Source: Candidatus Woesearchaeota archaeon (GTDB taxonomy: Archaea; Nanobdellota; Nanobdellia; Pacearchaeales; GW2011-AR1). From it: a stretch of DNA of 64,000 nt. The notes beneath the pieces were generated by a model. It did not search any database. It saw only the letters and a list, made by a program, of their open reading frames with translations, and was not told where the DNA came from. Positions within the stretch are counted from its first letter, which is position 1. Every line of letters begins with the position of its first letter. A program made the translations under genes and the position numbers. This document shows positions 18,044 through 21,000 of the stretch, piece after piece. The stretch is taken from NCBI GenBank assembly GCA_964534185.1, contig CAZHOH010000005.1, forward strand, positions 7,777 to 71,776. The letters run 5' to 3'.

Positions 18044-21000
18044 CGGCTTTGTGATCCTATTAAGCTGTTAGACGGATAGCTTGGCTTAGATTGCGACGAA
18101 GGACGTGGCAAGCTGCGAAAAGTCTGGGTTAGCTGCACGCGAGCTTTGACCCCAGAATCTCCTAATGCGACAACGTTCTCCTCGGAGAATGCTGAGAAGC
18201 AGGCATACGCTGGGAATTGAAACATCTTAGTACCGGCAGGAAGAGAAAGCAAATGCGATGCCCTTAGTAACAGCGAGTGAAAAGGGCCCAGGGCAAACTG
18301 AATCTTTTTTCTGAAAGGAAATTAGAGATGTGGTGAGGAATCATGGCTAAGTAAAATTATCAAAGTTTTCTGGAAAGAAATACCTTAGAGGGTGATAGTC
18401 CCGTAGATAGTTTTATATGTCGTGCCTTAAAAGAGTAGTGTCTCCTGGATTGGAGGCATGAATACAGCAAGATTAATTGCTAACCCTAAACATAAATCTA
18501 AGTCCGATAGCGCACTAGTACCGCGAGGGAAAGCTGAAAAGTACCTTTAACAAGGAGTTAAAAGACTTGAAATCTAACAGTCACAGTTTGTTACGGCATT
18601 ACGGTGTTGTAACGTACGTTTTGAAGAATGGACCAGGGAGTTTTCTTCTGTGGCAAGGTTAACATTAGGAAGCCATAGCGAAAGCGAGTCAGAAATGGCG
18701 CGAGTCACAGGGGACAGACCCGAAGCCAGATGATCTAATCATGGGCAAGGAGAAGTCTATAGAAATATGGATGGATGCCTGAACCGTTGTTGTGTGCATG
18801 CACTTGGATGATCTGTGATTAGGGGTGAAAAGCCTCTCTAATCTGGCGATGGCTGGTTCCAGCTGAAATATGCCTAAGTATAGCCTTGCTTAGTTTGTAT
18901 ACGAGGTAAAGTACGGATAGAGTTTGCAGGGTCTAATGACTACGGAACTCTGTCCAACTCAGAATTTGTATACTGCGTAAAGCAAGAAACGGGGGCAGGG
19001 CGTAAGGTCCTGTTCCGAGACCTGAACAAGGGAGACTAAAGTTAAGGTCCCAAAATATATGCTAAGTGTATCGAACTCTATCTGAAATCTGAGACGCTGG
19101 GGAGGTAGGCCCAGAAGCAGCCACCCTTTAAAGAAAGCGTAACAGCTCACCTATCGAGATTTCGGGTGAGGAAAATGGACGGGGCTAAGCATATTACCGA
19201 TACTTTAGAGACACTCAGATGAGTGTTCTGGTAAGCTGGCGTACTTTTTGTGCAGAAGCATTTTCGAGAGAATGTGTGGAACGAAAAGTAATGAAGATCC
19301 TGGTTTGAGTAGGATCAGATTTGCCTGAGAATGGCAAAGGTCGAAAGAGCACGGTTTCCTTGGCGCTATTTGTTAACCAAGGGTTAGTCAGTACCTAAGT
19401 TGTACCTTAACTGAGTACATCGATGGACATCAGGTTAATATTCCTGAACTGATTTAATTTGTTATGCTATAGGATAGCTTCAGGATAGGTGGCGTCGCGA
19501 AAGTGACGTTAAAACAGAAGTTTGTGGAGTGTAATACTAAGATGCAAGCGAATGTTTTGGTGAGAACCATTGATTCCAGGAGCCAGTGAAAAGTTCTATA
19601 GATAGAATTAAATTAGCTGTACCTAGAACCAGCACAGGTGCTCTAGCTGAGAAGGCTAAGACCTGAAAGGGATAAACTGGTTAAGGGAATTCGGCACATT
19701 AGTCCCGTATCTTCGGTAGAAGGGATGTCTATCCATGTCTTTGATATTAGAGGGCATGTGTAGATCTCAGTAACAAGGACTGCCCGACTGTTTACCAAAA
19801 ACATAGCCGAGTGCTAATCCGAAAGGACTTGTATACTCGGTGAGACCTGTCCAGTGGCGGTGTCTGAAACTCCTTTTCAAGGGAGCTAATGCCCGTCAAA
19901 CGGCGGGGGTAACTATGACCCTCTTAAGGTAGAAACGCTGCCTTACGGCATTTCTCGTCGAGAAATGACGCTTCAAAAGTTATAGTAAATAAACAGTTGT
20001 TGAATTCAAAATTAAACCAATGAAGAAAATCGAGCCATATGCTGGAAAATCCGAGAATCTTGCAGTACTCGTCGATAAAATCTTATCGCCAGTAAAAATC
20101 TGTCAAGTGCGGACAATCAGCAGGAAAGACTTCTTAATTAAAAGAAGAATCCTCAGAGACTATACGCTCGACATAATGCAATTAAAGGAAAGTTTGAAAA
20201 AAACTTAGTTGCATTTATGAAGATATAGTCCGAACTTCATAGCGATATGAAGAATTGTGTTTGCTCAATTAAACACAGATTAACATATGAGCGTAATGCC
20301 TTGTCGTTTGAATAGCGACGCGCATGAATGGTTTAATGAGGTGGTCGCTGTCCCTAACCAGCACCTTCTGAAATAATTGACCGGTGAAAAGGCCGGTGAT
20401 ACCTAGTGGGAAGCAAAGACCTTGTGGAACTTTACTGCAGCATGCTATTGTGATTTTTTAATCGATGCATAGAATAAGTGGGAGCGTCGAAGCTGTTGTT
20501 CCGGCGACAGTGGAGCGAAAGTGTAATACCACTCACCGATTAAAGAATCACTAACCCTCTCTGAGAGGACAGTAGCTTGTGGGCAGTTTGGCTGGGGCGG
20601 CACCCTGCAGAAAATATATCTGCAGGGCACAAAGATAAGCTCACCGAGGGTGGAAATCTCGGGTTGAGTGTAAGAGCAAAAGCTTATCTGACTGTATTTC
20701 GAAAAGCAAGAAATGCAGGGGCGAAAGCCGGTTCTAGCGACCCTTCGAGAACTTTTAATAGGTTCCGAATGTGACAGAAAAGTTACCCCAAGGATAATTG
20801 GCTTGTCGCGCCCGATAGTCCGAATTGACGGCGCGGTTTGGTACGTCGCTGTCGGCTCTTCCTAACCTGGTAGTGCACAAGCTACCAAGGGTGTCGGAGT
20901 TCACGCATCAAAAGGGATCGTTAGCTGGGTTAAGAACGTCGTGAGACAGTTTGTATGATATCTACTAGGTATGTTGTTGTCTGAGCGGAACGAGCATTTA

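What the first reader, a model, noticed from the sequence alone, without database searches (positions are those of the whole stretch)
19931..20289. ORF-less group I ribozyme intron in the 23S rRNA gene of an archaeon (site ~L1931)
Archaeal rRNA introns are classically bulge-helix-bulge introns cut by EndA, but this 359-nt insert has the full group I architecture. Exon 1 ends in U (19930), which pairs as U.G with the internal guide gcctta (19940-45) to form P1. The adjacent guide acgct (19935-39) pairs with the first 5 nt of exon 2 to form P10. The textbook R (tcagagactata) and S (aagatatagtcc) core elements form a 7-bp P7, and P3, P4, P6, P8, P9 and a P9.x hairpin are all present. The intron ends in G (20289). 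Excision restores the universal AAGGTAGCGTAATGCC. By my own numbering from the E. coli sequence, the site is U1931, a known hot spot for organellar and bacterial group I introns. The intron carries no homing endonuclease gene: the 62-aa track ORF lies across P3-P8. To my knowledge group I introns are only sporadically seen in archaea, so this suggests horizontal transfer into a DPANN-like lineage.
Basis: partly seen in the sequence, partly recalled or inferred. Interest (0 to 1): 0.8.

Follow-up and report, generated by a model that had tools for sequence, protein, structure and literature searches.

The report
Group I intron in archaeal 23S
The 359-base insert is a genuine self-splicing-type (group I) intron without a homing gene in the 23S rRNA gene of a DPANN archaeon, but this exact class, at this exact site, was described in 2018 and is common, so it is a new member of a known family and not a surprise.

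Summary
Window 19931-20289 (359 nt) interrupts an archaeal 23S rRNA gene (18045-21230) immediately after the nucleotide homologous to E. coli U1931.

Evidence that it is a group I intron:
- It matches Rfam Intron_gpI at 69.2 bits (cut-off 50, E 1.7e-15).
- It has a U.G pair at the 5' splice site in P1, a contiguous P10/P1 guide, all core helices, the P3/P7 pseudoknot and a terminal G.
- Across 27 homologous archaeal L1931 inserts, 89% of cells in the proposed helices pair, against 35-42% in slid controls. 49 pairs carry compensatory changes.
- A bulge-helix-bulge motif cannot form at any junction that restores the rRNA. A tRNA-Lys intron in the same window served as the positive control.
- No endonuclease gene is present. 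Longer relatives carry a LAGLIDADG_1 gene in the P6 loop.

The novelty premise fails. Nawrocki, Jones and Eddy (2018) reported 39 archaeal group I introns. IB4 introns at LSU/1931 were the commonest class, mostly in DPANN lineages and often ORF-less. My scan found inserts at this site in 59 archaeal species genomes. The nearest relatives are DPANN introns (at most 81% identity), so a cross-domain transfer is not indicated.

Verdict: a real, well-formed new member of a known kind. Interest is low.

The parts
18045..21230 (+). Host gene: archaeal 23S rRNA. It is 3186 nt with the intron and 2827 nt spliced, and lies in a 16S - tRNA-Ala - 23S operon.
   Evidence: RF02540 at 2170 bits, RF01959 at 15744-17182 and tRNA-Ala at 17506-17576.
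19925..19930 (+). Last 6 nt of exon 1 (TAAGGT), the 5' strand of P1. U19930 is the 5' splice-site U and corresponds to E. coli U1931.
   Evidence: Pairing shown; E. coli numbering.
19931..20289 (+). The group I intron, 359 nt.
   Evidence: Insert in the LSU model; RF00028 at 69.2 bits; helix map; covariation.
19935..19945 (+). Internal guide sequence. ACGCT (19935-39) pairs with exon 2 to form P10. GCCTTA (19940-45) pairs with exon 1 to form P1, with G19940 opposite U19930.
   Evidence: Across relatives, 43% have at least 3 contiguous P10 bp against 2% in the null.
19946..19970 (+). P2 hairpin: C46-G70, G47-C69, a G.A mismatch, then 19949-56 with 19960-67.
   Evidence: P2 folds independently in all 14 DPANN-form relatives despite different sequences.
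19971..20025 (+). P2.1, closed by CTTCA (19971-75) with TGAAG (20021-25). The interior is A-rich and partly conserved.
   Evidence: The closing helix covaries: CTCTA/TAGAG, CTCCA/TGGAG, CTCA/TGAG.
20030..20035 (+). P3 5' strand (TCGAGC).
   Evidence: Pairs with 20166-71. 5 of 6 pairs carry compensatory changes and 100% of cells are paired.
20040..20122 (+). P4-P5 domain. P4 is 20040-45 with 20117-22; J4/5 is AAAA; P5 is 20050-53 with 20110-13; P5a is 20059-65 with 20100-07; P5b is 20066-69 with 20091-94; P5c is 20073-78 with 20083-88; J5/4 is CAA.
   Evidence: P4, P5, P5a and P5b are 98-100% paired, and P5a covaries at 7 of 7 pairs.
20123..20152 (+). P6 (20123-25 with 20150-52) and P6a (20130-35 with 20142-47). 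This is a small hairpin at the position where relatives carry the LAGLIDADG gene.
   Evidence: P6a covaries at 6 of 6 pairs.
20153..20165 (+). J6/7 (TCA), P7 5' strand (G20156, bulged A20157, GACTA 20158-62) and J7/3 (TAC). Together these form the 'R' element, which includes the presumed guanosine-binding G20158-C20230 pair.
   Evidence: P7 is 100% paired in 27 sequences and its last pair covaries AU/GC/UA. These are the same P7 strands as the published archaeal IB4 introns.
20166..20171 (+). P3 3' strand (GCTCGA). With P7 it forms the core pseudoknot.
20172..20219 (+). P8 (20172-81 with 20209-19, T20214 bulged) and P8a (20190-95 with 20201-06).
   Evidence: The five basal P8 pairs covary. The distal part is specific to this intron.
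20220..20231 (+). J8/7 (AAGATA) and the P7 3' strand (TAGTCC, 20226-31), together the 'S' element.
20235..20252 (+). P9 (CTTCATA with TATGAAG), capped by the GNRA-type loop GCGA at 20242-45.
   Evidence: 100% paired and 5 of 7 pairs covary. The loop's G, G and A are invariant and its C is at least 90% conserved.
20256..20277 (+). P9.1 hairpin (TGTGTTT with AAACACA).
   Evidence: It covaries with L038, L055 and L077.
20278..20289 (+). 3' tail GATTAACATATG, ending in the terminal guanosine (omega-G) at G20289. The TAACA block is conserved in relatives.
   Evidence: All 64 inserts examined end in G.
20290..20294 (+). First 5 nt of exon 2 (AGCGT), the 3' strand of P10.

Best explanation
Window 19931-20289 is a group I catalytic intron of the archaeal LSU/1931 class, which Nawrocki et al. 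2018 assigned to subgroup IB4. It sits in the 23S rRNA gene of a DPANN archaeon related to Woese- and Pacearchaeota.

Inferred mechanism: the pre-23S transcript folds so that the guide GCCUUA pairs with the end of exon 1 (P1), placing U19930 in a U.G wobble. An exogenous guanosine bound at the G20158-C20230 pair of P7 attacks after U19930. The adjacent guide ACGCU then holds exon 2 (P10), the terminal G20289 takes the guanosine site, and the freed exon-1 3'-OH attacks after G20289. The exons are ligated to restore ...UUAAGGU-AGCGUAAUGCC in the H69-H71 region. No protein is needed in principle.

The intron carries no homing endonuclease gene, so it is immobile on its own. It is most simply the ORF-less state of a lineage whose other members carry a LAGLIDADG_1 gene in the P6 loop and spread by homing.

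Shown here: the sequence, the site, the family match, the helices and their covariation, and the absence of a BHB motif and of a HEG. Inferred: catalysis, splicing in vivo, and the history of HEG loss.
For: - RF00028 scores 69.2 bits against a cut-off of 50, E 1.7e-15.
- The insert lies exactly after the base aligned to E. coli U1931.
- P1 with U.G, a contiguous P10/P1 guide, omega-G and 17 helices are all made of canonical pairs.
- Covariation on 27 archaeal L1931 inserts: 89.3% of cells paired against 35-42% when the partners are slid, 49 pairs with changes on both sides, and 0/500 shuffles reach the covariation score. P3, P4, P5b, P6, P7 and P9 are 100% paired.
- P2, P2.1 and P9.1 are supported within the DPANN subset.
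- MFE z-score is -3.70.
- Five of six relatives tested pass the RF00028 gathering score on their own.
- All 64 inserts end in G, and P10 is enriched 20-fold over the null.
- The P7 strands GAGACUA/UAGUCC with a bulged second base are identical to the published archaeal IB4 introns.
- Relatives have LAGLIDADG_1 genes between P4' and P7. The window has none.
- There is no BHB motif at the junctions, with a working positive control.
Against: - No experimental or transcript evidence is available, so splicing is inferred from sequence only.
- No archaeal group I intron turned up as experimentally self-spliced in my literature searches.
- An intron at this same site in Simkania is reported to stay unspliced (Everett 1999, as cited in PMC11270868).
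- Subgroup IB4 was not tested with a subgroup model. It rests on homology of site and core to the published set.
- The structure used for the covariation counts was derived from the window sequence itself, and P1 in the relatives was imposed by my search pattern.
- The distal parts of P8 and P5c are specific to this intron and so have no comparative support.
Confidence: 0.9

Rival explanations
1. It is a group I-derived insert that no longer self-splices. Either it stays in the mature 23S rRNA, as reported for the Simkania L1931 intron, or it needs a host protein cofactor.
For: There are no transcript data. The reported unspliced intron at the same rRNA site is cited in PMC11270868. The intron is AT-rich (35% GC), with long A-rich peripheral loops. 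No experimental splicing of any archaeal group I intron was found.
Against: All catalytic-core features are intact and match a family under clear structural selection: P3, P4, P6, P7 and P9 are 100% paired with many compensatory changes. U.G, omega-G and a full 5-bp P10 are present. The site lies between H69 and H71 at the subunit interface, where a retained 359-nt insert would probably be harmful (established ribosome knowledge, inference).
Confidence: 0.07
2. It is a classical archaeal bulge-helix-bulge intron removed by the EndA splicing endonuclease and an RNA ligase.
For: This is the default expectation for archaeal rRNA introns. The same genome does contain a BHB intron: tRNA-Lys at 40412-40621(-) scores H=4, h=5.
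Against: At the three junction placements that restore the 23S sequence, the central 4-bp helix has only 3, 2 or 1 pairs and the flanking helices have at most 1 bp. None of 88 relaxed BHB candidates within about 50 nt restores the rRNA sequence. The insert has a significant group I match and covarying group I helices.
Confidence: 0.01
3. It is an assembly chimera or contaminant, that is, a bacterial or organellar intron-bearing fragment joined to archaeal DNA.
For: The window probably comes from a metagenome. Group I introns at L1931 are also known in bacteria, CPR and organelles.
Against: Both exons are part of one continuous archaeal LSU match of 2170 bits in a 64-kb stretch that also holds archaeal 16S and archaeal RNase P RNA. 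59 independent archaeal genomes have homologous inserts at the same site. The nearest relatives are in DPANN 23S genes.
Confidence: 0.01

Closest known systems
Archaeal IB4 group I introns at LSU/1931 (Nawrocki, Jones & Eddy 2018, NAR 46:7970, PMC6125680), e.g. IB4.3, IB4.4 and IB4.22 in Woese- and Pacearchaeota
   Same: Same host gene and same insertion site (L1931). The P7 strands are identical (GAGACUA/UAGUCC with a bulged second base). The size range of the ORF-less members is the same (248-464 nt), as are the host lineages (DPANN). The detection route, an Infernal match plus a hand-built P7, is also the same.
   Different: This sequence matches none of the listed introns by length and P7, and it is absent from the two collections scanned. 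Its nearest relatives are 81% identical over 248 nt. Subgroup membership was not tested with the GISSD IB4 model.
HEG-containing archaeal L1931 introns found here (e.g. L038 Pacearchaeota at 740 nt, L042 and L077 Woesearchaeota, L005 Nanoarchaeota)
   Same: Homologous P1-P5 and P7-P9 blocks, and the same P2-P2.1 extension. The P9.1 and 3' tail are 87% identical to L038.
   Different: They carry a LAGLIDADG_1 gene of about 160-200 aa in the P6 loop. The window has only a 6-bp P6a hairpin at that position.
Compact archaeal L1931 introns of Thermoplasmata, Altiarchaeota and Nitrososphaerales (250-305 nt; e.g. L015, L048, L093)
   Same: Same site and same P3-P9 core, with compensatory changes relative to the window.
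   Different: They lack P2 and P2.1, so P1 runs straight into P3. They have two 3' hairpins, with a GAAA loop on P9.1. Core identity to the window is only 55-63%.
Bacterial and organellar L1931 group I introns (Thermotoga, Simkania, CPR bacteria, chloroplasts and mitochondria)
   Same: Same rRNA position, and association with LAGLIDADG_1 endonucleases (PMC11270868).
   Different: The exon context belongs to a different domain. I made no direct sequence comparison with these introns. The Simkania intron is reported to remain unspliced.
Archaeal bulge-helix-bulge rRNA and tRNA introns
   Same: They interrupt archaeal stable-RNA genes and can carry LAGLIDADG genes. One is present in this window, in tRNA-Lys.
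   Different: They are cut by a protein enzyme at a BHB motif. This insert has no BHB motif and instead has a ribozyme core.

Membership tests
Group I catalytic intron (Rfam RF00028) | Covariance-model match at or above the curated gathering score | tested here: met
   69.2 bits against 50, E 1.7e-15, model positions 1-253 of 253.
Group I catalytic intron (Rfam RF00028) | Conserved core of P3-P4-P5-P6-P7-P8-P9 with the P3/P7 pseudoknot, supported by covariation | tested here: met
   All helices are canonical in the window. Across 27 sequences 89.3% of cells pair against 35-42% when slid, with 49 compensatory pairs and 0/500 shuffles.
Group I catalytic intron (Rfam RF00028) | 5' splice site follows a U that forms a U.G wobble with the internal guide in P1 | tested here: met
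   U19930.G19940 closes a 6-bp P1. In the relatives this feature was imposed by the search pattern, so it is informative only for the window.
Group I catalytic intron (Rfam RF00028) | Intron ends in G (omega-G), and a P10 pairing links the guide to exon 2 | tested here: met
   G20289 and a 5-bp P10. 64 of 64 inserts end in G, and P10 of at least 3 bp occurs in 43% against 2% in the null.
Group I catalytic intron (Rfam RF00028) | Guanosine-binding site in P7 (a G-C pair next to a bulged nucleotide) and conserved J6/7 and J8/7 | tested here: met
   G20158-C20230 follows the bulged A20157. The R and S elements are invariant across 27 sequences. Only the sequence feature was tested, not binding.
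Group I catalytic intron (Rfam RF00028) | Guanosine-dependent two-step self-splicing | not testable with these tools
   This needs in vitro transcription and splicing, or RNA from the organism.
Archaeal LSU/1931 IB4 class (Nawrocki et al. 2018) | Insertion immediately after the E. coli U1931 homologue in an archaeal 23S gene | tested here: met
   Alignment to K-12 rrlB; the host gene matches RF02540.
Archaeal LSU/1931 IB4 class (Nawrocki et al. 2018) | Significant match to the GISSD IB4 subgroup covariance model | not tested
   No subgroup model is available here. The assignment rests on identical P7 strands and on sequence homology to many archaeal L1931 inserts.
Mobile (homing) group I intron | An intron-encoded homing endonuclease gene | tested here: not met
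   No ORF has a Pfam hit. tblastn with the relatives' LAGLIDADG proteins hits only the shared ribozyme core. Relatives do encode LAGLIDADG_1.
Archaeal bulge-helix-bulge intron | Two 3-nt bulges separated by a 4-bp helix, with the splice sites in the bulges | tested here: not met
   (H, h, h') is (3,1,0), (2,0,0) and (1,0,0) at the junction-compatible sites. The positive-control tRNA-Lys scores (4,5,1).

The most novel reading that the evidence does not exclude
The most novel reading not excluded is that this compact ORF-less intron does not self-splice in the cell. It could be retained in the mature 23S rRNA, as reported for the Simkania L1931 intron, or it could depend on a DPANN host factor that binds the lineage-specific P2-P2.1 extension. 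That extension has a conserved G.A mismatch and conserved internal-loop sequence. Either case would make it an archaeal group I intron with a non-canonical fate.
Probability: 0.07. Interest if true: 0.5.

Novelty: new member of a known kind. Interest (0 to 1): 0.2.

Why it matters
It adds little conceptually. Group I introns in archaeal rRNA genes, especially at LSU/1931 in DPANN lineages and often without a HEG, have been documented since 2018.

Its practical value is modest but real.
- It is a small (359 nt), ORF-less, structurally complete example with a full 5-bp P10. That makes it a convenient substrate for what appears still to be missing from the literature I could search: a direct demonstration that an archaeal group I intron self-splices.
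- For annotation, recognising the intron prevents a mis-called or fragmented 23S gene and a spurious 62-aa ORF.
- The survey done here shows how common the class is: 59 species genomes with an insert at this one site, in two architectural forms, with LAGLIDADG genes at every stage from intact to absent.

Tried and rejected
1. My first BHB test used the mirror-image geometry, with the bulges 5' of the central-helix strands. I noticed this when the same function failed on the tRNA-Lys intron. That result is void and is replaced, which uses the correct geometry and a positive control.
2. The 62-aa ORF as a degenerate HEG: rejected. It has no Pfam hit, it lies in a different frame from the HEG-homologous core stretches, and it crosses P3-P8.
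3. HEG remnants in the intron or a free-standing LAGLIDADG gene elsewhere in the window: tblastn gives only the ribozyme-core overlap and nothing significant elsewhere.
4. Tracing the source contig through a 762-aa window protein: not on record. The window's intron is also absent from genome contigs and metagenome contigs, although both patterns would have matched it.
5. In the MAFFT alignment A1, P2, P2.1, P9.1 and part of P10 are misaligned because the compact introns lack them. Their low pairing values are alignment artefacts, so these helices were examined separately in the DPANN subset.
6. A seventh P7 pair (20163/20225): no covariation.
7. About 30 of the 91 genome hits were chance matches in bacterial protein-coding DNA, and two Altiarchaeales loci matched through native exon sequence without an intron. 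These were excluded.
8. The L9-loop regular expression at the end was mis-registered and is ignored.
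Full report
OBSERVATION

The window carries an archaeal rRNA operon: 16S at 15744-17182, tRNA-Ala at 17506-17576 and 23S at 18045-21230. 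The archaeal LSU model is interrupted by an insert of about 360 nt directly after ...CCCUCUUA, and it resumes at GGUAGCGUAAU.

Reading the sequence, the repeated AG at both ends allows three placements that restore the rRNA. Only one has exon 1 ending in U and the insert ending in G: exon 1 ends at T19930 and the insert is 19931-20289 (359 nt). Aligning the spliced gene to E. coli K-12 rrlB (2904 nt, landmarks checked) puts T19930 opposite U1931. A first attempt with an O157 copy was six bases short of canonical numbering, so I replaced it.

WHAT IT IS

Rfam's Intron_gpI model matches 19942-20252 end to end at 69.2 bits (gathering score 50; E 1.7e-15 for the window, 2.2e-17 for the local search).

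I laid out an explicit helix map, and every proposed pair is canonical:
- P1: 19925-30 with 19940-45, with U19930.G19940 at the splice site.
- P10: 19935-39 with 20290-94 (5 bp). The two guide segments are contiguous.
- P2 and P2.1.
- P3: 20030-35 with 20166-71.
- P4, P5, P5a, P5b and P5c.
- P6 and P6a.
- P7: G20156 and 20158-62 with 20226-31, with A20157 bulged.
- P8 and P8a.
- P9, with a GCGA loop.
- P9.1.
- The terminal G20289.

Thermodynamic folding alone recovers P2, P4 to P6a, P8, P9 and P9.1. The MFE z-score is -3.70 and 0/100 shuffles fold as well.

COMPARATIVE EVIDENCE

I scanned one genome per GTDB species with an exon-plus-guide pattern that intronless genes cannot match. It returned 91 stretches. 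Of these, 61 lie in archaeal 23S genes: two have no insert and 59 have one. Of the 59 inserts, 47 are complete (250-898 nt) and 12 are cut by the end of the locus. Every complete insert ends in G.

The hosts are labelled Woese-, Pace-, Nano-, Micr- and Altiarchaeota, Thermoplasmata/Thermoplasmatota, Halobacteriales and Nitrososphaerales.

The window intron shares BLAST-detectable core blocks with all of them. Five of six that I tested pass the RF00028 gathering score on their own, at 56-83 bits.

I projected the window's helices onto a MAFFT alignment of the window plus 26 short inserts. The counts were:
- 89.3% of cells form standard pairs, against 35-42% when the 3' partners are slid by 1-3 columns.
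- 49 pairs show changes on both sides.
- The covariation score is 0.316 against 0.105 in shuffles, and 0/500 shuffles reach it.
- P3 is 100% paired with 5 of 6 pairs compensatory. P4, P5b, P6, P7 and P9 are 100% paired, and P5 and P5a 98%.
- P5a (7/7), P6a (6/6), the base of P8 and P9 (5/7) covary heavily.

Caveats: the structure came from one of the aligned sequences, the sequences are related, and P1 in the relatives was imposed by the pattern. P10 was not imposed. 43% of relatives have at least 3 contiguous P10 pairs against 2% in a compositional null, and the window has the maximum of five.

TWO ARCHITECTURES

The compact inserts, mostly from Thermoplasmata, run from P1 straight into P3. 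A DPANN set that includes the window has a P2-P2.1 extension. Within that set, P2 folds independently in all 14 sequences and the closing helix of P2.1 in most, with different sequences. P9.1 covaries with L038, L055 and L077.

A metagenome scan for the DPANN form gave 19 loci. The nearest, L105 and L107 (348 nt), are 81% identical over 248 nt, and the window's own sequence is absent.

NO HOMING GENE

The largest ORF (62 aa, 20020-20208) crosses P2.1 to P8 and has no Pfam match. Twenty relatives are longer than 470 nt. Where the ORF is intact it is a LAGLIDADG_1 endonuclease (E 1e-22 to 1e-28), lying between P4' and P7, that is, in the P6 loop. Several inserts of 544-637 nt retain only short broken ORFs.

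tblastn of these proteins against the window hits only 20106-20132 and 20147-20173. In the relatives, the first residues of the endonuclease (SADNQQERL) and its last residues (ESSETIR) are encoded by the ribozyme core itself: P5'-J5/4-P4'-P6 and P6'-J6/7-P7-J7/3. The window therefore looks like the ORF-less state of this lineage. Whether the gene was lost or never present is inference.

RIVAL: BULGE-HELIX-BULGE INTRON

My first test used the wrong handedness of the motif and is void. I found this when the function failed on an intron-containing tRNA gene in the same window.

With the correct geometry, the tRNA-Lys(CUU) intron (135 nt, at position 37/38, window 40412-40621 minus strand) scores a 4-bp central helix and a 5-bp outer helix, and it splices to a 75-nt tRNA. 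The 23S insert scores (3,1,0), (2,0,0) and (1,0,0) at the three admissible junctions. None of 88 relaxed candidates nearby restores the 23S sequence. The BHB reading is rejected.

HOST AND HISTORY

The host's 23S exons are 87% identical to a Woesearchaeota MAG, and its 16S is 88% identical to a Pacearchaeota MAG. Archaeal RNase P RNA is also present. The host is a DPANN archaeon with no close representative in the collections (one search also found no record).

Intron identity to the window is highest for introns in DPANN hosts (62-72%) and lower for the others (55-63%). It correlates with host 23S identity (Spearman 0.49, p 0.02, n 21). This is a coarse test. It favours descent or homing within DPANN over a recent import from another domain.

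WHAT IS KNOWN

Nawrocki, Jones and Eddy (2018; PMC6125680) reported 39 archaeal group I introns. Among the 27 IB4 introns, 16 are at LSU/1931, and many of these are in Woese-, Pace- and Micrarchaeota. 18 of the 39 have no HEG. The P7 strands are GAGACUA/UAGUCC with a bulged second base, exactly as here. None of their entries matches this intron in length and P7, so it is a further member.

Later work treats archaeal group I introns as established. LAGLIDADG_1-bearing inserts at 23S position 1931 are also frequent in CPR bacteria. I found no report of experimental self-splicing of an archaeal group I intron, but the library is limited to open-access papers.

VERDICT

The finding is real and correctly interpreted at its core, but the premise that made it look remarkable is out of date. 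It is a new member of a known kind. Interest is 0.2. The mechanism, canonical guanosine-initiated two-step self-splicing, is inferred from an intact and comparatively supported core, and has not been shown.

Noticed in passing
window 40412-40621 (-): A tRNA-Lys(CUU) gene interrupted at position 37/38 by a 135-nt intron, unusually long for a tRNA intron. It has a good BHB motif (4-bp central helix CUCU/AGAG, 5-bp anticodon stem; inner helix only 1 bp) and splices to a 75-nt tRNA. ARAGORN missed it; Rfam tRNA found it at 47.4 bits. BHB and group I introns therefore coexist in this genome.
   Followed up: partly
L005, L014, L038, L042 and other long L1931 introns; homologous window stretches 20106-20132 and 20147-20173: In HEG-bearing relatives the LAGLIDADG reading frame is threaded through the ribozyme core. 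Its N-terminal SADNQQERL is encoded by P5'-J5/4-P4'-P6 and its C-terminal ESSETIR by P6'-J6/7-P7-J7/3. About 27 nt on each side therefore serve as both coding sequence and catalytic RNA.
   Followed up: partly
L003-L093 (genome contigs) and L094-L112 (metagenome contigs): Archaeal L1931 introns come in two architectures. One is compact, has no P2/P2.1 and has two 3' hairpins (Thermoplasmata, Altiarchaeota, Nitrososphaerales and some DPANN). The other is a DPANN form with P2-P2.1. Several P2 stems keep a G.A mismatch at the third position (CGG...ACG).
   Followed up: partly
L010 (579 nt), L072 (544), L030 (626), L025 (637), L011 (737): Intermediate-length L1931 introns whose longest ORFs are only 37-121 aa. 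They look like decaying endonuclease genes, which would fit a cycle of HEG gain, decay and loss. I did not check them residue by residue.
   Followed up: no
window 31850-32113 and 32162-32233 (+): Archaeal RNase P RNA (122.8 bits) is followed 48 nt downstream by tRNA-Phe(GAA) on the same strand.
   Followed up: no
window 15744-21230: The rRNA operon is 16S - tRNA-Ala(UGC) - 23S, and no 5S rRNA was detected anywhere in the 64-kb window at the gathering threshold. The spliced 23S is short (2827 nt against a 2987-position model).
   Followed up: no
L061 (Micrarchaeota chromosome OY970229.1), about 3826 on the minus strand: After ...TTAAGGT the sequence reads AGCGTAAACAAGGCTATCGACCTTA..., so the 23S appears to be interrupted a few bases downstream of L1931 at a different site. 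L017 and L063 (Altiarchaeales) matched the pattern only because their native exon 2 reads ACCTTA.
   Followed up: no
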